A stretch of 64,000 bases of DNA, taken from NCBI GenBank assembly GCA_023460995.1, contig JAEWOE010000001.1:10664-74663 (forward strand), given 5' to 3'. Positions within the stretch are counted from its first letter, which is position 1. Every line of letters begins with the position of its first letter. Made by a program: the position numbers and the translations under genes. The stretch comes from Bacillota bacterium. GTDB taxonomy: Bacteria; Bacillota_I; Bacilli_A; RF39; UBA660. Positions 4,942-42,637 of this stretch are shown in pieces. The notes under the pieces are model-generated. The model had not been told where the DNA came from. It saw only the letters and a program-made list of their open reading frames with translations, and made no database searches.

Positions 4942-5372
4942 CCCAGAAAGAGACGGCTATTAGCCCCTCTTTTCTTTTTTTCATTTTTAATGACAAAACG
5001 AGATTGAGAACTATGCAACTTTATATATGTCGGTGCACCAGGATGCGCCTTCTTTTTATTATATATATATCGTCTATATATGTAGTATATAACAGTAATT
5101 ATATTATTTTAGTTAATAAGCTTATATTTAGAAAAACTAACGACTTCATGATGTATTATCATTTTAAATATATAAAAAGAAAAAAGGGGACTTCCCCTTT
5201 TTATTTTAATTTATTATATTTTTCATAAAAAATTATTTTTTTACTGATTTAGTTATTCTAATAATTATAAAAAAAAACATATATCATTTCATAATTACTT
5301 TTATAATCAAATATATGTTTATGATAGATATAAAATATTGTAAGGTTGAAATTGTAGTATCTCTCCCCTAGC

Positions 5373-5606
5373 CTATTTTAATTTCTTTTTTTCAAAACCA
5401 TTTTTTCCTAAATCAAAACCGTTTAATTGCATTTTTATAATAATATGATTGATGTCAGTATCTTTTAAACCTAGATTTTTGAAATCTTTTCTTTTTAACA
5501 TGCATATGTCTTTTATCTTGCTTAATTTGTTAGATTTAAGTAACATCTCAATTTCGTTAGAAATATTTAATATTTTAATATCGTCAGTGTTGTACAACGT
5601 ATCCAT
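5373..5606 (-). CDS. small helix-hairpin-helix protein (RNAP alpha-CTD-like fold, tentative)
   Basis: RBS AGGAG 7 nt upstream of the ATG at 5606. Sequence ILNISNEIEMLLKSNKLSKIKDICMLKRKDFKNLGLKDTDINHIIIKMQLNGF resembles HhH / RpoA C-terminal-domain architecture. Lies immediately downstream of the CarD-family gene. Confidence 0.4.
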   Translation of the reverse strand: MDTLYNTDDIKILNISNEIEMLLKSNKLSKIKDICMLKRKDFKNLGLKDTDINHIIIKMQLNGFDLGKNGFEKKKLK

Positions 5607-5632
5607 AATTTTACTCCTGTTATTATCTATAC

Positions 5633-6127
5633 CTATTTTTTTAATTCTTCAACTTTATTATGAACATATTTCTTTGTTTGTTCGTAAGATAAGCCTAGTA
5701 CAATAGAAAACTCATTATATAGAGATTGCTCTGCTAATTTAAGATAATTAGTATCTGTTGCTCCAGCCTTTTTTCCATCAATTATTTTCGTTTCATTTCG
5801 TAAATAAGCTGTCTTAATTATTCTAATTAAGTCTTCATGTTTACCAGTCATAATTAAATCTTTATAAATATAAATAATAGGTTTGTTACCAATACTATTT
5901 ACTTCTTCAATATTAGGTATGTTATTAATTAAACTTTCTACTTCCTGCTTTGTCATAATAGATCTAATAATACCATTTTTATCTTCGACAGGTAGTGAAA
6001 TAGTAAGAGATTCGTCTTCAATTGGACTCAATATATAATAATCCATATCCCCATAGTACTTTTCTTTAATTTCTTTAACTTTACAAATGTTTTTTTTGAA
6101 GACCACATATTCCCCTTGTTTAAACAT
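5633..6127 (-). CDS. CarD/CdnL family transcriptional regulator
   Basis: N-terminus MFKQGEYVVFKKNICKVKEIKEK matches the CarD_CdnL_TRCF N-terminal motif. Start moved to the ATG at 6127, which has RBS GGAGGTG 6 nt upstream (the ORF track begins earlier at a non-ATG). Confidence 0.7.
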   Translation of the reverse strand: MFKQGEYVVFKKNICKVKEIKEKYYGDMDYYILSPIEDESLTISLPVEDKNGIIRSIMTKQEVESLINNIPNIEEVNSIGNKPIIYIYKDLIMTGKHEDLIRIIKTAYLRNETKIIDGKKAGATDTNYLKLAEQSLYNEFSIVLGLSYEQTKKYVHNKVEELKK

Positions 6128-6146
6128 AAAATACACCTCCTCTAAT

Positions 6147-6192
6147 AGAAAAAGAGTAGTTTGCAACTGGACTTACGCCTGCAAAGCTACTC
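6147..6192 (-). terminator. rho-independent terminator downstream of deoB
   Basis: 12-bp stem gagtagctttgca / tgcaaa(g)ctactc with a 14-nt loop, followed on the minus strand by a TTTTTCT run. Confidence 0.5.
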
Positions 6193-6312
6193 GTTGTATT
6201 TATATTATACCATTTTTTATAGTTAAATGTAAGTCAAACCTTCCAATTATCGAATTATAACGTATTGTTATACCTGTTTAACATAATCTAAACTAATAAT
6301 AAAGATGAAATG

Positions 6313-7509
6313 CTACTTTAATTTACTTAGAAAACTAGTTCCTACTGGAGCATTAACTTTAAAATTATCTGCTATAGTTGCTCCTAGATCTGCAAATGTA
6401 GCAAGTTCATCTAATTTCTTAGGTTGTTTTAAACTAGATGAATATACAAAAACTGGTACATCTTCTCTAGTATGATCAGTTCCTTTAAATGTGGGGTCAT
6501 TGCCATGATCTGCAGTTATAATAAGTAAATCATCGTCATTTAAATGCGCTAGAATATGTGGTAGTGCTTCATCAACTTCTCTAAGAGCATCACCATATCC
6601 TTTGACATCTCTTCTATGTCCATATTTGCTATCAAAATCATTTAAATTAGCAAAACATAATCCTGTGAAATCTTCATGTAGTTTTTTCATGAAGCTTCTA
6701 ATGCCTTCAGTATTATCACCAGTATGAGTACTTTCAGTAATTCCACAGTCATTAAAAATATCTGCAATTTTACCTATTGATATTACATCTAAATTATTAC
6801 TTTTTAAATTATCTAATACAGTATTATTAACTGGATCTAAGGCATAATCTTTTCTGTTTCCAGTTCTTACAAAACTACCAGGATTACCTGTAAATGGTCT
6901 AGCTATGATTCTTCCAACTTTCCATTCTTCATTTAATGTAAGCTGTCTTGCCATTTCACATACCTTATATAATTCTTCTAATGGAATAATGCTTTCATGT
7001 GCTGCGATTTGTAATACTGAATCGGCAGAAGTATACACGATAAGAGCACCAGTTGCAATTTGTTCTCTACCTAATCTTTCAATTATTTCGGTCCCTGAAG
7101 CATTGCAATTACCTATAACTTTTCTACCACTCGCTTCTTCTAATGCAGTTATTAACTCTTTAGGAAAACCAGTGTTAGTATAGGTTTTAAAAGGAATTTT
7201 AGTAATAATACCCATCATTTCTAAATGACCTGTTAAAGTATCTTTACCATTACTTACTTCCCTAGCTTTAGTATAATAACTCATTGTTGGAAAATTAGTA
7301 TTATTTACAATATTAAATAACCCAAATTTAGCAAAATTTTTATACTGATGTGTAGTGTTATCAATAACATGTTTTAATGTATGGGCCCCTTTATCACCAA
7401 AATCAGCTGCATCTCTAGCCTCCCCTGCCCCTACTGAATCAAGTACAACTAGAAATATTCTTTTAAACCTATATGTTTCTTTTCTTTTTCCAAAATTAAA
7501 AATTCCCAT
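6313..7509 (-). CDS. deoB: phosphopentomutase
   Basis: RIFLVVLDSVGAGEARDAADFGDKGAHTL… matches the DeoB N-terminus. Start set at the ATG 7509, which has RBS GGAGG 6 nt upstream. Lies 1 nt downstream of the xerD stop, the same gene order as ripX-drm in Bacillus. Confidence 0.85.
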   Translation of the reverse strand: MGIFNFGKRKETYRFKRIFLVVLDSVGAGEARDAADFGDKGAHTLKHVIDNTTHQYKNFAKFGLFNIVNNTNFPTMSYYTKAREVSNGKDTLTGHLEMMGIITKIPFKTYTNTGFPKELITALEEASGRKVIGNCNASGTEIIERLGREQIATGALIVYTSADSVLQIAAHESIIPLEELYKVCEMARQLTLNEEWKVGRIIARPFTGNPGSFVRTGNRKDYALDPVNNTVLDNLKSNNLDVISIGKIADIFNDCGITESTHTGDNTEGIRSFMKKLHEDFTGLCFANLNDFDSKYGHRRDVKGYGDALREVDEALPHILAHLNDDDLLIITADHGNDPTFKGTDHTREDVPVFVYSSSLKQPKKLDELATFADLGATIADNFKVNAPVGTSFLSKLK

Positions 7510-31858: not shown

Positions 31859-31943
31859 TATTCCTTTTTTGTATATATGTGTAAAGTAGTTTTGCATTTA
31901 TATGTACACATTTGTTATAATGAATAATAGAGGTGGCATATAT

Positions 31944-33455
31944 ATGGATGACATTTTATTTACAGAAGAAAGTGGCAAAGAATTTCAAGAAAGCCTTTAT
32001 AAAGCACTTAATAGTGATATAAAAGAAATAAATAATAAGTTAAATGCTGAATTACTTGAAACTTATATAGATAATATATTAAAAAAAGAATTAAAAGATA
32101 AACCCGATGAAATAATTCTTTTTCATCCAATGATAGTAAAATTATCTAAAAAGAGTGACTTATATGATAAATATGCATTTGCTTTAACAGGCTTATCATA
32201 TAAAGAATATATAAACACAGTAAAAAAAATAATAGGAAATAAAAAAAATCTAGCTATTATTAAAAGTTACGCTACAAGTAATATTGATATTTTAGATTAC
32301 AAGAACCCTATTGAATTAGAAATATCCTCTATATATGCTAATTTGATACTTAAAGACTATTTAAAAACACTTGATATACAAAGATGGTTTATCACCTACA
32401 TAATTAGGAAAGAAGCAACAAATCATGGTTTAAAGCCTAATATCAAAGGTGTTACAATTATAAATAGAAATAAAACAAAATTATATAAAAATTCTCCATA
32501 TAAAAAATACTTAGATCTAGAAATAATTGATAATTATTCTAATTTCATATATATTAACCTTGGGTTATTTAATATTATTAAGAAGGAAAAAGGTAATAAA
32601 ACTGCCTTAATATACTTACTAAATACATGTTTTAAAGCCTTACAAAGACACATTAGGAAAAGTAATGAACATTCTATTACATATGATGATGAAATGTATC
32701 GCTTTATTAAAGAAGGAATTATATTCAAAGAAGATAATAACTTCTATAACCAAAACAAACTATATTTTAGTAGTGAGATTAATTTAAACGAAGAAACTGA
32801 TAATATGACTAAAGCTTTAATGGATAACCCTTTATTTAGTAAATTTGATTTTTTAAAGGAATTTGATGAAGAAGAAAACTATTCTTCCTATAAAAACACT
32901 GAAGATTATTTCGAAGTAGATAATCATATTGATAATATTTTAGTTAATAAACCTAGAATCTTAAATGATTATCCCCTGCTTCAAATGGAATATAGTGAAG
33001 TTGGAAGAAGAAAAAGTATTAAAGAATTAATCGATATTAAAATAAGCCAAATGGAATTCTTTAATATTCAAATAAGTAATTTTAAAGAAATCTTATTAGA
33101 AACTGATAATGATATTATAAAGGATAATATTACTATAAAATTAAATGAAATAGAAAAAGGATTACCTGGTGTTATTAGATGTCATAATAATATGATTTAT
33201 AAATCTTTAAGAATACTAAGTATTCCAGATTTTAATAAATTACTTTATAAAATAGAACAAAATTACATAGATGAACTTAAAGAAGTAATTATCCAAGAAA
33301 AAAATGATATAATAAAAAAATTAGAAAATAATAGAAGAAAAATATTTAAGCCTACTACATTTTTAAAAAATGATGAATTCTTAACTAAAGAATATTCAAG
33401 AGTAGCTAGATATGAATCAAAAATTAATGATTTTGAAAAAGAAAAAACCAGATAA
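31944..33455 (+). CDS. hypothetical protein (about 503 aa)
   Basis: Start chosen at the ATG 31944 with RBS AGAGGTGG (the track ORF starts at 31902). No recognisable domain. Convergent with the 3-gene operon on the minus strand. Confidence 0.5.
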   Translation: MDDILFTEESGKEFQESLYKALNSDIKEINNKLNAELLETYIDNILKKELKDKPDEIILFHPMIVKLSKKSDLYDKYAFALTGLSYKEYINTVKKIIGNKKNLAIIKSYATSNIDILDYKNPIELEISSIYANLILKDYLKTLDIQRWFITYIIRKEATNHGLKPNIKGVTIINRNKTKLYKNSPYKKYLDLEIIDNYSNFIYINLGLFNIIKKEKGNKTALIYLLNTCFKALQRHIRKSNEHSITYDDEMYRFIKEGIIFKEDNNFYNQNKLYFSSEINLNEETDNMTKALMDNPLFSKFDFLKEFDEEENYSSYKNTEDYFEVDNHIDNILVNKPRILNDYPLLQMEYSEVGRRKSIKELIDIKISQMEFFNIQISNFKEILLETDNDIIKDNITIKLNEIEKGLPGVIRCHNNMIYKSLRILSIPDFNKLLYKIEQNYIDELKEVIIQEKNDIIKKLENNRRKIFKPTTFLKNDEFLTKEYSRVARYESKINDFEKEKTR

Positions 33456-33469
33456 TATCTGGTTTTTTT
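33442..33469. terminator. bidirectional terminator between convergent genes
   Basis: aaaaaaccagat-aat-atctggttttttt. Overlaps both stop codons. Confidence 0.55.
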
Positions 33470-34229
33470 AATCAAATAAACTAATTTGTCCCTCTATAGA
33501 AATATTTTTTTTCTTAACTTTTGTTTTTGATTTTTCTTTTGGTTTTGTTCTTACAGATTCAACTTTTTGCACAACTTTTTCTTGTGTAGGTACAGGAATT
33601 TCAATTCTTTTTCTTTTACGTTTATCATGGGCAAAGAACATCCCTAAGTCATGAACTCCCTTATACTTTATCATAGCAGAACCATCTTTATTACTTTTAT
33701 AAGTAGAAGTAGATGCATCATAATAATATGTTTCTCTTATTACAAAGTTTTTTAGACATGAATGAAGATGATTTATATCTTCCTGTTCCATTTCTGATCC
33801 TTTTGCTACACAATTAATGTAATTTCTAATAGCGTTTATATTAGTTCCTTGAATATAACTATTACGATAGTGATTACATAGTTTTTCCAAAATTTGAATA
33901 TTAGATAAACATGATTCTAAATAATAAGCAAGATATATCTCATCAAGAAACATTTTATCATCACAATACGCAAGACCATATCCTAAATTTTTTTCTACTC
34001 CACGACTCTTATATCTTATAGATAGTTTTTGATTATAATCATCAACACTCATTAGACCATTTTTAACTAATTCTTCTTTTAAATCATCCTCATTTTTAAA
34101 AGAGGTAGTAAATAAGTCAATATCTTTAAGTAAATGATTATCTAAATTAGAAAAAATCGGAATTTTATTCCATAATATCTCTTCAAACTTTTTCTTTCCT
34201 TTGTTTAAAGATAAAATATAGTTAGCCAT
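33468..34229 (-). CDS. hypothetical protein, Lys-rich tail ending in QISLFD (beta-clamp-binding-like pentapeptide)
   Basis: RBS CAGGGGGAGAA, identical to that of gene 34807..36018. C-terminus …KKKNISIEGQISLFD resembles the QL[SD]LF sliding-clamp interaction motif. Confidence 0.5.
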   Translation of the reverse strand: MANYILSLNKGKKKFEEILWNKIPIFSNLDNHLLKDIDLFTTSFKNEDDLKEELVKNGLMSVDDYNQKLSIRYKSRGVEKNLGYGLAYCDDKMFLDEIYLAYYLESCLSNIQILEKLCNHYRNSYIQGTNINAIRNYINCVAKGSEMEQEDINHLHSCLKNFVIRETYYYDASTSTYKSNKDGSAMIKYKGVHDLGMFFAHDKRKRKRIEIPVPTQEKVVQKVESVRTKPKEKSKTKVKKKNISIEGQISLFD

Positions 34230-34250
34230 ATAACTTCTCCCCCTGATTCA

Positions 34251-34793
34251 TTACTTTTTAAATATCTTTTCTCTTATAAATCTCTTAATTCCTTTGTTGT
34301 TAGAGTCTTCTATTTCTCTTACTGGCTCAATTTCAGAAAAATCTGCATCTACTATTTCACCTGGAATATCCATATGATTAGTCCCTAATTTAATTTTTAT
34401 AATTTCATCTAAATAATTAATTACATATTCTAGTTTTTCACACTCATCCTTAACTAAAGAATAGTTCTTTGCTCTTTTTTCTCTACTAAGATTATTATGT
34501 TTTGTTGAGATAGTATCAATAGTTTCAATAAGAACTTTAAGTTTTTCATCAAGTTCTTCGACTGTTAAATTTTTATAATCATCATAATTAATAATATAAT
34601 CAAGTTTACTAAAATAATCTATTGCAGCTTTATCTTCAAAGGAAACAAAATCCATTCTATTACTATCATCGACAATAACTATACCTTTAAAAAATTGATT
34701 AATTATAACTGAAGGAATAGAATTACTATGGTTAAATGCGAACATTATATCATTCTTTTGGACATAAATTTTATTATTTCTAAATACTTTCAT
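34251..34793 (-). CDS. hypothetical protein (180 aa)
   Basis: Intact ORF tightly spaced between the flanking genes (13-nt and 21-nt gaps). Acidic. No known domain. Confidence 0.5.
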   Translation of the reverse strand: MKVFRNNKIYVQKNDIMFAFNHSNSIPSVIINQFFKGIVIVDDSNRMDFVSFEDKAAIDYFSKLDYIINYDDYKNLTVEELDEKLKVLIETIDTISTKHNNLSREKRAKNYSLVKDECEKLEYVINYLDEIIKIKLGTNHMDIPGEIVDADFSEIEPVREIEDSNNKGIKRFIREKIFKK

Positions 34794-34806
34794 ATTAAGT
34801 TTACCC

Positions 34807-36018
34807 CTATCTATTTTCCAATTTTTTAATTTTCTTCTTTTCTTTTTCTGTAGAAGCTAACAATACTTTTTTTTCATAGCTAAAAATCGAATTAGTTAAT
34901 TTTTGAAATAACTCTCTTTCTTCTGGTGAATATACTTCAGCGCAATTATAATGAACAGTTTTCAACAATTTATATACCGATCTAATACTTAATTTTTCTT
35001 TCTGACTACTTCTAGAACCATATCCAATAAAGCAATATAAATCACTATTTCCTCCAGCTTTAATATATTCTAAAATAAAACTTCGTAAACCAGGATCAGA
35101 TAAATCTACACCGTACATCATAGGAATATCAATATTTCTTTCAAATTCCTTAGCAAACATAAAAGCTCTTCTAGGACCAATTCTGTTACCGCCTCTTTCA
35201 ATAATGCGATACATCACACAGTCTAATAAACCATTATTCAAAGCCTTTTTATCATCATATCTTCTTATTGCTTCCTCTAACTCATTATTATTTGGCAAAT
35301 CCATTCCTTGCTCTTTCATAAATTTGACTACTTCAGTAATATGCATTCCTTCAAACGGATCATCATTATATGTTCCCCAGCCAGGAATAGGTTGCATATA
35401 TTCTGATTCTTCTACTGTTCCATCATTAGATAAATGAATATGAGACGCCATAGAATTATATCGGTTATCTGGATTAACATAAACTAACTCTGGATATTTT
35501 GGTTCACTTAAGTAATATGATTCATCATAAGGTAATGATTTTATAAAACTCTCTTTAGAATAAAAATTATTCCACTGTAATATACTTACTACCTCCATAA
35601 GATCTTCAGCTTTATCTATTTCTAATATTTCGGCTATTTCTTTAATAGCATTATTTTGTTTTAGCATAATATCATCAATTTCTTGATTGCTTTGACCGCA
35701 GCAAGGAAATAAACGATTAACTTCATACTCTGGATATCTCAGTTCAAACCACACGGCCATTTTTTCAATAAAATCTCGTATTCTTTTAGGTTCGTTATAC
35801 TCACCAATTTTTGTATACTGTCCTTTAACATATTTGTCGGTATACCAACTTATAAATTCATCAATCTTAGTTTCTAAATCGATGGTTTCATTTTTTCCAG
35901 TATCTTCTGAAATTGTAATATTTTCTTCTAAGTTCTTTTTAACATTAGAAGCTTGCTTTACAGAAGTACTTTGTAACATTCCTTTTTTAAACTTTAATAG
36001 TTCAGCTTTTAAATTCAT
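34807..36018 (-). CDS. hypothetical protein (403 aa)
   Basis: Intact ORF with strong GC-rich RBS ATCAGGGGGAGAA. First gene of a 3-gene operon that starts just downstream of tRNA-Glu. Confidence 0.5.
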   Translation of the reverse strand: MNLKAELLKFKKGMLQSTSVKQASNVKKNLEENITISEDTGKNETIDLETKIDEFISWYTDKYVKGQYTKIGEYNEPKRIRDFIEKMAVWFELRYPEYEVNRLFPCCGQSNQEIDDIMLKQNNAIKEIAEILEIDKAEDLMEVVSILQWNNFYSKESFIKSLPYDESYYLSEPKYPELVYVNPDNRYNSMASHIHLSNDGTVEESEYMQPIPGWGTYNDDPFEGMHITEVVKFMKEQGMDLPNNNELEEAIRRYDDKKALNNGLLDCVMYRIIERGGNRIGPRRAFMFAKEFERNIDIPMMYGVDLSDPGLRSFILEYIKAGGNSDLYCFIGYGSRSSQKEKLSIRSVYKLLKTVHYNCAEVYSPEERELFQKLTNSIFSYEKKVLLASTEKEKKKIKKLENR

Positions 36019-36090
36019 AATAAATATTCTCCCCCTGATATGTTTATGATTACTACACTTTCATTTTATCATATTTTGTGAATTTTTAAC

Positions 36091-36117
36091 AAAAAAAACA
36101 TCCTAATAATAGGATGT
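36091..36117 (-). terminator. rho-independent terminator following tRNA-Glu
   Basis: acatcct-aataat-aggatgt followed on the minus strand by T8. Confidence 0.55.
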
Positions 36118-36129
36118 TTTATTATTATA

Positions 36130-36206
36130 TGGTAACTCGTATGGGTTTCGAACCCATGGATACCGCCTTGAGAGGGCGGCGTGTTGAACCCCTTCACCAA
36201 CGAGTC
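36130..36206 (-). tRNA. tRNA-Glu (anticodon CUC by manual fold)
   Basis: Minus-strand cloverleaf: acceptor GACTCGT/ACGAGTT, 3-bp D stem (typical of tRNA-Glu), anticodon stem CCGCC/GGCGG with loop CUCUCAA, T-arm ATGGG-TTCGAAA-CCCAT, encoded CCA. Confidence 0.6.
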
Positions 36207-36299: not shown

Positions 36300-36851
36300 C
36301 TACTTTTTATGAAGAAGATATCTTATTTTAGTTAGTTCAAAGTAATTAGACTGTTCTTTTTTACCAAATCTTATATCATTTATATGCAAATTATCTTCTT
36401 TAAAGCCAACTTTTATGAATGTTTTAATAGCGGCCTTTCTATCTAAAGGAATCTTATCTGCAACTTTATTAAGTTTTAATTTATTAAAAGCAATGTCCAT
36501 TAATAATCTTAAAGCTACTTCACTATATCCTTTACCTCTATAATCACTTTCTAATAAAATATGGACTAAGTGACAATCAAAATCATTATCATAATGTAAG
36601 GCTACTTCACCTATTGGAGTTTCATCTAACATAATATATGCATAATATTTTTTAGGTTCATTATTAACCCAAGCGTTAAACCATACTTGCCATTTTTCAT
36701 CAGTAAACTTAATAATACCTGTATCATAATTATATCCATCAAGATTTTGCTTATAACCGGCATTATAAGCCATTGTTTTAGAGTCAGCTAGTATTTGCTT
36801 ACGATAATCAAGTTCACTTAAACTAGGTACTTTTAAAGAAATTTTATTCAT
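36300..36851 (-). CDS. GNAT family N-acetyltransferase
   Basis: Acetyl-CoA-binding motif region HILLESDYRGKGYSEVALRLLMDIAF. Confidence 0.7.
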   Translation of the reverse strand: MNKISLKVPSLSELDYRKQILADSKTMAYNAGYKQNLDGYNYDTGIIKFTDEKWQVWFNAWVNNEPKKYYAYIMLDETPIGEVALHYDNDFDCHLVHILLESDYRGKGYSEVALRLLMDIAFNKLKLNKVADKIPLDRKAAIKTFIKVGFKEDNLHINDIRFGKKEQSNYFELTKIRYLLHKK

Positions 36852-42560: not shown

Positions 42561-42637
42561 TGGTAGCGACGGAGAGATTCGAACTCACGACCTACCGGGT
42601 ATGAACCGGTTGCTCTAGCCAACTGAGCTACATCGCC
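42561..42637 (-). tRNA. tRNA-Met (CAU anticodon, elongator-type; Ile2-lysidine not excluded)
   Basis: GGCGATG-TA-GCTC-AGTTGGCTA-GAGC-A-ACCGG-TTCATAC-CCGGT-AGGTC-GTGAG-TTCGAAT-CTCTC-CGTCGCT-A-CCA. Strongly resembles Bacillus elongator tRNA-Met. Confidence 0.65.

What the first reader, a model, noticed from the sequence alone, without database searches (positions are those of the whole stretch)
31944..36206. tRNA-Glu-adjacent cluster of four uncharacterised genes (3-gene operon + convergent 503-aa gene)
A tight minus-strand operon (403, 180, 253 aa; intergenic gaps 13 and 21 nt) starts right after the tRNA-Glu terminator and converges on a 503-aa unknown gene sharing a bidirectional terminator. 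None has a recognisable domain. Two of the genes carry the same unusually GC-rich RBS context ATCAGGGGGAGAA. Proximity to a tRNA (a classic island insertion site) plus complete lack of annotation make this the best candidate in the window for a novel accessory or defence-type system.
Basis: partly seen in the sequence, partly recalled or inferred. Interest (0 to 1): 0.65.

Follow-up and report, generated by a model that had tools for sequence, protein, structure and literature searches.

The report
Mobile-element relic beside tRNA-Glu, not a system
The four unknown genes next to tRNA-Glu are real and functional but are not one system: two are an immobilised leftover of a tRNA-targeting mobilizable element, and two are resident lineage-specific genes, one of which probably binds the DNA sliding clamp.

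Summary
In detail: all four ORFs, the 13- and 21-nt gaps, tRNA-Glu(CTC), both terminators and the duplicated ATCAGGGGGAGAA are present, and no domain library matches any protein. The locus is a mosaic. p403 and p180, with their own promoter, are a ~1.85-kb insertion between the tRNA-Glu terminator and p253. One outgroup relative has the empty site, and another keeps only a p180 C-terminal stump. p403 belongs to a large unnamed family (437 clusters at 50% identity). In intact elements it is the last gene of a 5.9-kb integrative mobilizable element: 91-aa ORF, large serine recombinase, MobV relaxase, then the p403 homologue. That element inserts at the GCACCA 3' end of tRNA genes. The window has no recombinase, relaxase or att ends, so its copy is a relic, yet it is under purifying selection (dN/dS 0.2). 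p253 and p503 are resident genes. p253 ends in a conserved QLSLF-type clamp-binding motif, and p503 always follows the formate-tetrahydrofolate ligase gene. No defence signature was found. The biochemical functions remain unknown. The p403 and p253 models match no solved fold.

The parts
36130..36206 (-). tRNA-Glu (anticodon CTC). It anchors the locus and is conserved at this position in L006, L008 and L093.
   Evidence: ARAGORN.
36095..36120 (-). Intrinsic terminator hairpin of the tRNA-Glu gene. It is also present in relatives that lack p403/p180, so the insertion lies downstream of it.
36063..36092 (-). Promoter-like site for p403 (TTGTTA-18-TAAAAT with an upstream TG). The TATGATAAAAT block is shared with the region upstream of the p403 homologue inside the intact element in L034.
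34807..36018 (-). p403 (403 aa). It is a member of a large unnamed family that forms the last gene of tRNA-targeting serine-recombinase/MobV integrative mobilizable elements. The fold is unrecognised and the protein is acidic (pI 5.3).
34251..34793 (-). p180 (180 aa). It belongs to a small family found in tRNA-flanking island DNA, often as tandem paralogues, and it is not an obligate partner of p403. It forms the distal part of the insertion.
36020..36039 (-). Copy 1 of the 20-nt RBS-region repeat (contains ATCAGGGGGAGAA), upstream of p403.
   Evidence: family D3.
34228..34247 (-). Copy 2 of the 20-nt RBS-region repeat, upstream of p253. The two copies bracket the p403-p180 insertion, 1792 bp apart.
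33468..34229 (-). p253 (253 aa). A resident lineage-specific gene with a confident globular domain (residues 1-210), a disordered Lys/Glu-rich linker and a C-terminal GQISLFD (codons at 33471-33491) matching the beta-clamp-binding consensus.
   Evidence: motif definition from PMC12309361.
33442..33468 (.). Bidirectional terminator hairpin shared by the convergent p253 and p503 genes.
   Evidence: pair I15.
31944..33455 (+). p503 (503 aa). A backbone gene that always lies downstream of the formate-tetrahydrofolate ligase gene on the same strand, and the most constrained of the four (dN/dS 0.044). By eye it has its own TTGCAT-18-TATAAT promoter at 31892-31921.
   Evidence: sequence.

Best explanation
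The locus is a mosaic of three unrelated histories. (1) p403 and p180, with p403's own promoter (about 34251-36092), are an immobilised remnant derived from a family of integrative mobilizable elements (IMEs). The intact form is a 5.9-kb element with a 91-aa ORF, a large serine recombinase, a 61-aa ORF, a MobV relaxase and a p403-family gene. It inserts at the GCACCA 3' end of tRNA genes. In the ancestor of this organism and two sequenced relatives the segment came to lie between the tRNA-Glu terminator and the resident gene p253. The recombinase, relaxase and att ends are gone, so it can no longer move. (2) p253 is a resident lineage-specific protein. Its disordered tail ends in a canonical clamp-binding motif, so it is predicted to be tethered to the DnaN sliding clamp on DNA. 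Since the insertion it is apparently co-transcribed from the p403 promoter. (3) p503 is a backbone gene fixed downstream of the FTHFS gene. Shown here: the anatomy, the presence/absence polymorphism, the element boundaries in relatives, the tRNA association and the purifying selection. Inferred: because p403 stays intact and constrained for long periods without any mobility genes, it acts independently of integration and transfer. It most likely works as an element-borne accessory ('cargo') function that benefits the host or resists loss, and not as recombination, transfer or replication machinery. Its biochemical activity is unknown.
For: Insertion polarity. L093 is an outgroup (p503 59% identical) and has tRNA-Glu(CTC) followed 94 bp later by the p253 homologue. 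L008 has tRNA-Glu, then a 49-aa stump matching p180 residues 124-152 (tblastn E 7e-6), then p253. L006 is fully syntenic with the window.

Element membership. L034 and L036 share 5,923 bp at 99.9% identity with different flanks. The shared segment starts in the tRNA 3' end and stops about 120 bp after the p403 homologue. Pfam identifies Resolvase + Recombinase + Zn_ribbon_recom and Mob_Pre in the upstream genes.

tRNA association. The nearest upstream tRNA/tmRNA is on the same strand in 36 of 36 loci. A tRNA lies within 5 kb upstream in 27 of 46 loci, against 7 of 51 downstream (Fisher p = 4.7e-6). The loci form a graded decay series.

Relic status. No recombinase, relaxase, c5 or Abi_2 relative is found in the window, and no element ends are found.

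Selection. dN/dS is 0.205 for p403 and 0.189 for p180, with dS similar to the neighbouring genes. In eight species with tRNA-Arg followed by p403 and no mobility genes, the orthologues are 79-99% identical with median dN/dS 0.25, against 0.16 for GlmS.

Resident status of p253 and p503. The convergent p253/p503/FTHFS arrangement is found in L008, L092 and L093, and FTHFS-p503 adjacency in L010 and L011.

Clamp motif. PGQ[LIM]S[LF]F[DE] is conserved at the C-terminus after an unconserved linker with pLDDT below 50. The consensus QL[S/D]LF and the PolC C-terminal QLSLF are described in PMC12309361.
Against: The window copy does not abut the tRNA CCA end as intact elements do. It lies about 45 nt further on, after the tRNA terminator. 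The tRNA-Glu 3' end is TTACCA, not GCACCA. So arrival by the same recombinase is inferred and not shown, and no att scar is visible. p180 lies outside the element boundary in L035, so whether p403 and p180 arrived together is unknown. The 'cargo' reading of p403 rests only on its persistence and context. There is no defence-model hit, no fold match and no recognisable catalytic signature. Clamp binding by p253 is a motif-level prediction only.
Confidence: 0.72

Rival explanations
1. One reading: the four genes form one novel accessory or anti-phage defence system carried on a tRNA-inserted island.
For: The genes are tightly packed next to a tRNA and none has an annotation. In some relatives p403 homologues sit beside an Abi_2 gene.
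Against: The four genes have separate distributions. p403 occurs in over 90 loci without the other three. p253 and p503 persist without p403/p180 in L092 and L093, and with only a p180 stump in L008. L010 and L011 keep p503 but have no detectable p253. p180 relatives in 22 metagenome loci never have p403 within 6 kb. PADLOC gives no hit. p503 is as constrained as FTHFS.
Confidence: 0.05
2. p403 is the replication or maintenance protein (initiator-like) of the excised circular element, and the window copy is simply a not-yet-degraded relic with no present function.
For: It is the only gene in the minimal 5.9-kb element that is not assigned to recombination or mobilization. IMEs often carry replication initiators for maintenance of the excised form (PMC5704250).
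Against: The gene is intact and under purifying selection without any mobility genes, both here (dN/dS 0.2) and across eight species at the tRNA-Arg locus. The protein is acidic, pI 5.3. It shows no similarity to any Rep family in Pfam or PDB. The HUH-like motif is not conserved.
Confidence: 0.13
3. After the insertion, p403, p180 and p253 became a functional three-gene operon, for example with p403/p180 activity delivered to DNA through the clamp-binding p253.
For: There is one promoter, no internal terminator, and gaps of 13 and 21 nt. In this lineage p403 and p253 have near-identical RBS regions. All three genes are under purifying selection.
Against: L008 deleted p403 and most of p180 but kept an intact p253. 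p253 functions alone in L092, L093 and L009. The RBS identity is not shared by L006.
Confidence: 0.07
4. p403 is a host gene family that merely tends to lie downstream of tRNA genes. The recombinase/relaxase elements insert between the tRNA and p403, so p403 is not part of any mobile element.
For: In many loci p403 directly follows a tRNA with no mobility genes, for example 23 nt after tRNA-Arg in nine loci.
Against: The 99.9%-identical segment shared by L034 and L036 includes p403 and ends about 120 bp after it, next to different tRNAs and different flanks. The family is multi-copy in some MAGs and lies next to at least six different tRNA types plus tmRNA. The window site is empty in L093.
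Confidence: 0.03

Closest known systems
Tn4451/Tn4453-type integrative mobilizable elements (large serine recombinase TnpX/TndX plus Mob/Pre relaxase TnpZ)
   Same: The intact relatives of the p403 segment (L034, L035, L036) are about 6-kb elements. [quoted passage not shown]
   Different: The target is the 3' GCACCA end of tRNA genes, which is regenerated on insertion. PMC5704250 states that serine-recombinase IMEs usually insert within genes and that Tn4451 recombines at a 2-bp core. The accompanying gene is the unknown p403 family and not catP. The window copy has neither enzyme nor ends.
Decayed IME/ICE remnants and tandem accretion at tRNA genes (CIME-type relics)
   Same: The integration and transfer genes are lost, the segment lies next to a tRNA gene, arrays are tandem or nested in relatives (L017; a c5-like remnant after the L034 element), and the loci form a graded decay series (concept in PMC5704250).
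   Different: A CIME by definition keeps attL and attR. No att sites are detectable in the window, so this is a further-decayed relic. What survives is a selectively maintained gene.
tRNA-gene genomic islands with tyrosine integrases
   Same: Insertion is at the 3' end of tRNA/tmRNA genes in a fixed orientation, with a short repeat restoring the tRNA end.
   Different: The recombinase is a large serine recombinase and not a tyrosine integrase. The same element (99.9% identical) uses different tRNA genes that share only GCACCA.
Proteins with a C-terminal beta-clamp-binding motif (Firmicute PolC QLSLF; many transposases)
   Same: p253 ends in GQISLFD (family consensus GQLSLFD) after a disordered linker. 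This is the canonical QL[S/D]LF motif at an unstructured C-terminus (PMC12309361; PMC4549789).
   Different: The globular domain matches no polymerase, repair protein, transposase or any solved fold. The family is tiny (17 clusters) and single-copy in a conserved position.

Membership tests
Integrative mobilizable element (IME) | Encodes its own site-specific recombinase (integrase) | tested here: not met
   tblastn of the element's serine recombinase against the whole window gives no hit. Pfam on the neighbouring ORFs shows none. The feature is met in the related loci L034, L035, L036 and L017.
Integrative mobilizable element (IME) | Encodes a relaxase and/or carries an oriT | tested here: not met
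   No MobV relative is found in the window. Mob_Pre is present directly upstream of p403 homologues in at least 10 related loci. oriT was not searched for.
Integrative mobilizable element (IME) | Flanked by att sites or short direct repeats at the target | tested here: not met
   The element end sequences are absent from the window. The only bracketing repeat is the RBS-region repeat, whose conserved core in relatives is just the Shine-Dalgarno sequence. In L034, L035 and L036 a GCACCA repeat flanks the element.
Integrative mobilizable element (IME) | Presence/absence polymorphism at the same site among relatives | tested here: met
   The site is empty in L093, carries a deletion stump in L008, and is occupied in the window and L006.
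Known anti-phage defence systems (PADLOC-DB v2) | At least one protein matching a defence-system model | tested here: not met
   Zero families at E up to 1 for all four proteins and two neighbours.
Beta-clamp-binding proteins (for p253) | QL[S/D]LF / QxxLF motif in an exposed, unstructured segment and conserved across homologues | tested here: met
   G247 and Q248 are conserved in at least 90% of members, and most members end in Q[LIM]S[LF]F at the extreme C-terminus. The preceding 35 residues are unconserved and have pLDDT below 50.
Beta-clamp-binding proteins (for p253) | Physical binding to DnaN through that motif | not testable with these tools
   This needs peptide-DnaN binding assays or a complex prediction. 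No tool here does that.
HUH endonucleases (Rep/relaxase/transposase) (for p403) | Conserved His-hydrophobic-His metal site plus a catalytic Tyr | tested here: not met
   H193 and H195 are present in only 45-47 of 100 diverse members. There is no Pfam or PDB similarity.
Single operon (p403-p180-p253) | Same strand, short gaps, one promoter, no internal terminator | tested here: met
   The gaps are 13 and 21 nt. Terminator-like sites lie only at 36095-36120 and 33442-33468. This is co-transcription by sequence signals only, with no expression data.
Tn4451/Tn4453 family | TnpX-type large serine recombinase plus TnpZ Mob/Pre relaxase, with the family's accessory genes (tnpV, tnpY, tnpW, catP) | tested here: inconclusive
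   The two enzyme classes are present in related loci, but no Tn4451 sequence was compared directly. p403 has no tblastn match in 72,556 plasmid records. Nothing of this kind is in the window itself.

The most novel reading that the evidence does not exclude
The p403 family (437 clusters at 50% identity, no recognisable fold or domain) could be a new kind of element-borne effector carried by a previously undescribed family of serine-recombinase/MobV elements that insert at the CCA end of many different tRNA genes. It might act in exclusion, defence or anti-defence. Hosts would keep it after the element decays because it is useful. Independently, p253 could be a new sliding-clamp client with a novel fold in these reduced-genome gut Bacilli.
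Probability: 0.25. Interest if true: 0.65.

Novelty: new variant of a known kind. Interest (0 to 1): 0.4.

Why it matters
For genome annotation, a tight tRNA-adjacent 'operon' of orphan genes turns out to be a composite of a mobile-element relic and resident genes. It should not be scored as a candidate multi-gene defence system. For mobile-element biology, the relatives reveal a compact serine-recombinase/MobV element that uses the shared GCACCA 3' end of different tRNA genes. It carries one large, widespread and wholly uncharacterised protein family that outlives the element. For replication biology of uncultured gut Bacilli, p253 is a testable new candidate partner of the sliding clamp. All functional statements remain predictions.

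Tried and rejected
(1) Domain and family searches. Pfam, PHROGs, PADLOC and NCBIfam gave nothing significant on single proteins. Pfam on every member of the three family alignments gave only isolated sub-threshold hits: EF-hand_14, DNA_pol3_delta (1 of 20 p503 members, E 0.004) and YMR265C_C. I treated these as noise.

(3) HUH/Rep idea for p403 ('AHLHLT' plus Y270). Rejected, because the two histidines are conserved in under half of the family.

(4) ATCAGGGGGAGAA as an att or target-site duplication. Rejected. In L006, L008 and L093 only the AGGGGGA Shine-Dalgarno core is shared.

(5) p180 as an obligate partner of p403. Rejected.

(6) Phage or plasmid origin. There were no hits on IMG/VR contigs for p403, p180 or p253, and none in annotated plasmids or phages.

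(7) Fused domains in long p403-family members. None were found.

(8) A 12-nt exact repeat, TCAAATAAACTA, lies at 33472 and 36205. My own estimate is that several such pairs are expected by chance in 3 kb of 26% GC sequence, so I judged it a chance match.


Full report
**1. Observation**

The window is about 26% GC. The finding's features are all present.
- The minus-strand ORFs are 403 aa (34807-36018), 180 aa (34251-34793) and 253 aa (33468-34229).
- A convergent 503-aa ORF lies at 31944-33455 on the plus strand.
- tRNA-Glu(CTC) lies at 36130-36206 on the minus strand.
- The intergenic gaps are 13 and 21 nt.
- Terminator-like hairpins occur only after the tRNA (36095-36120) and between p253 and p503 (33442-33468). 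An extended -10 promoter lies at 36063-36092.
- ATCAGGGGGAGAA occurs exactly twice in the 64 kb, against 0.04 expected.
- Pfam, PHROGs, PADLOC and NCBIfam give nothing significant, and public sources give the proteins no name.

So the description is correct. I call the proteins p403, p180, p253 and p503.

**2. The four genes have different distributions**

- p403 has 604 database relatives at 45-50% identity, 437 clusters at 50% identity, and 102 loci in species-representative genomes of uncultured gut Bacilli, including Candidatus Onthousia. Some MAGs carry two or three copies.
- p253 has only 17 relatives.
- p503 has 22 relatives.
- p180 has a few relatives in genomes and 22 in metagenome contigs.

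In the closest relative (L006; p403 79% identical) the whole block from peptide deformylase to QueH is syntenic.

**3. p253 and p503 are resident genes**

p503 lies directly downstream of the formate-tetrahydrofolate ligase gene on the same strand in every context recovered, down to 39% identity. In one context (L092) a 179-aa gene intervenes. The contexts are the window, L006, L008, L010, L011, L092 and L093. The convergent p253/p503 pair is kept in L008, L092 and L093. Against L006, p503 is as constrained as FTHFS (dN/dS 0.044 against 0.054), and p253 has dN/dS 0.109.

**4. p403 and p180 are an insertion**

- L093 is an outgroup by p503 identity (59%). It has tRNA-Glu(CTC), its terminator, a promoter and then the p253 homologue only 94 bp after the tRNA.
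- L008 has tRNA-Glu, then a 49-aa ORF matching p180 residues 124-152 (62% identity, E 7e-6) and the last ~150 bp of p180, then p253.

The simplest history is that p403-p180 was gained between the tRNA terminator and the p253 ribosome-binding site in the ancestor of the window, L006 and L008, and was then partly deleted in L008. The GNAT gene at 36300-36851 is a further insertion specific to the window lineage.

**5. What p403 travels with**

I clustered the ORFs around 80 p403 loci and scanned them with Pfam. In at least ten loci the order is: tRNA, a 91-aa ORF, a large serine recombinase (Resolvase + Recombinase + Zn_ribbon_recom), a MobV relaxase (Mob_Pre), the p403 homologue, and sometimes an Abi_2 gene.

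L034 and L036 come from different MAGs. They share 5,923 bp at 99.9% identity with unrelated flanks.
- On the left, the shared segment begins at the tRNA's own ...GGCACCA end. This is tRNA-Thr in L034 and tRNA-Leu in L035 and L036.
- On the right, it ends in ...CTCGCACCA about 120 bp after the p403 homologue.

So the intact element is a 5.9-kb integrative mobilizable element flanked by a 6-7-bp GCACCA repeat, and p403 is its last gene.

Across loci:
- The nearest upstream tRNA or tmRNA is on the same strand in 36 of 36 cases.
- 27 of 46 loci have one within 5 kb upstream, against 7 of 51 downstream (Fisher p = 4.7e-6).
- The loci form a decay series: full element; tmRNA-c5-truncated recombinase-p403 (L019); tRNA-c5-p403 (L004); and tRNA-p403 directly, including nine loci with only 23 nt and an RBS between tRNA-Arg and the start codon.

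The promoter block TATGATAAAAT upstream of p403 is shared between the L034 element and the window.

**6. The window copy is a relic that is still used**

No recombinase, relaxase, c5 or Abi_2 relative exists anywhere in the window, and no element ends are found. Yet p403 and p180 are under purifying selection (dN/dS 0.205 and 0.189), with dS like their neighbours.

In eight species that keep tRNA-Arg-p403 without mobility genes, the orthologues are 79-99% identical, against 82-99% for GlmS, with median dN/dS 0.25. This persistence argues that p403 works independently of integration and transfer. That step is inference.

**7. The repeated RBS context**

The 13-mer is part of a 20-nt repeat (17/20 identical) that brackets the insertion, 1,792 bp apart. 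In L006 the two sites share only AGGGGGA. The p253 site is T(T)AGGGGGA in L006, L008 and the empty site of L093. So the conserved part is a Shine-Dalgarno sequence. The wider identity is specific to this lineage and is not an att site.

**8. p180**

Its relatives lie near p403 homologues in only two other loci, L035 and L028. Both are on the opposite strand, and in L035 the gene is just outside the element's right end. None of the 22 metagenome loci has p403 within 6 kb. Many have tandem p180 paralogues, lie 0.4-3.5 kb from the 3' side of tRNA genes, or sit near MobV or c5 remnants. p180 is therefore another island-associated gene family and not a fixed partner of p403.

**9. p253**

The model is confident for residues 1-210 (pLDDT above 90) and disordered for 211-246. 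The family alignment shows an unconserved Lys/Glu-rich linker followed by a conserved C-terminal PGQ[LIM]S[LF]F[DE]. This matches the clamp-binding consensus QL[S/D]LF, which is also the C-terminus of Firmicute PolC (PMC12309361). Such motifs typically sit at unstructured C-termini (PMC4549789). I predict that p253 is tethered to DnaN. The globular domain has no fold or sequence relative.

**10. Function of p403**

The model (pLDDT 77, pTM 0.70) matches nothing in PDB or BFVD. Profile searches of PDB sequences are empty. Long family members carry no known fused domain.

Across 100 diverse members the invariant residues are K86, W90, Y91, E92, Y95, Y270, R275, G281, R284, F288, A289, F292, Y302, Y318, G322, G323, C329 and Y333. 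The His-x-His I suspected to be an HUH motif is not conserved. The protein is acidic (pI 5.3). No relatives occur on viral contigs, plasmids or phages.

I therefore commit only to this: p403 is an element-borne accessory protein that is selected independently of mobility. A replication or maintenance role is the main rival.

**11. Comparison with known systems**

The intact elements resemble Tn4451-type IMEs, with a large serine recombinase, a Mob/Pre relaxase, a size of about 6 kb and very short repeats. They differ in that they target the 3' end of tRNA genes, which the IME review assigns to tyrosine integrases, while serine-recombinase IMEs usually insert within genes (PMC5704250). The window segment itself fails three of four IME criteria and is best called a decayed relic. 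No defence-system membership is supported.

**12. Verdict**

The locus is not a four-gene system. Interest is moderate. It rests on a large uncharacterised element-associated family, an unusual tRNA-end-targeting serine-recombinase element in relatives, and a candidate new clamp client, all without an established function.

Noticed in passing
L034:1302-7224 and L036:1302-7224 (also L035:1460-7187): A complete 5.9-kb element (91-aa ORF, large serine recombinase, 61-aa ORF, MobV relaxase, p403-family gene) is 99.9% identical in two different MAGs. It is inserted exactly at the GCACCA 3' end of tRNA-Thr in one and tRNA-Leu in the other. tRNA-end targeting by a serine recombinase appears unusual compared with the IME review PMC5704250.
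   Followed up: partly
L059, L062, L063, L066, L067, L069, L074, L078, L085 (around 5902-6001 in most): In nine species-level genomes the p403 homologue starts 23 nt after the CCA end of tRNA-Arg(CCG), with only an AGGAG RBS between them and no promoter or terminator. This suggests co-transcription with the tRNA.
   Followed up: partly
window:38771-42431 (-): Three adjacent paralogous genes (498, 438 and 132 aa; 49-71% identical) have C-terminal leucine-rich-repeat-like units (LPxLxxxGxxFL) and no Pfam match. They lie just upstream of tRNA-Met at 42561-42637.
   Followed up: no
window:36300-36851 (-): A GNAT acetyltransferase gene lies between peptide deformylase and tRNA-Glu. It is absent at that position in L006 and L008, so it is a separate lineage-specific insertion.
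   Followed up: partly
window:34228-34247 and 36020-36039: The RBS regions of p253 and p403 are 17/20 identical in this genome only. In relatives the p253 site is T(T)AGGGGGA. This could be a short gene-conversion tract or convergence, and it is unexplained.
   Followed up: partly
window:28107-30053 (-): Two more domain-less genes (354 and 247 aa) lie on the other side of the FTHFS gene. The 354-aa gene is conserved in the backbone down to about 32-42% identity (L010, L011, L092, L093).
   Followed up: no
L004:8001-9125 and L004:12600-13832: Two p403-family paralogues (374 and 410 aa, about 34% identical) lie 3.5 kb apart in one tRNA-flanking island. Other MAGs carry 2-3 copies on different contigs.
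   Followed up: no
L099-L104, L110, L113, L115 (around 5280-6510): p180-family genes often occur as adjacent tandem paralogue pairs in human-gut metagenome contigs.
   Followed up: no
Alignment A2 (p503 family): One of 20 p503-family members gives a weak Pfam hit to DNA_pol3_delta (E 0.004). This is probably noise, but p503 is convergent with the clamp-motif protein p253.
   Followed up: no
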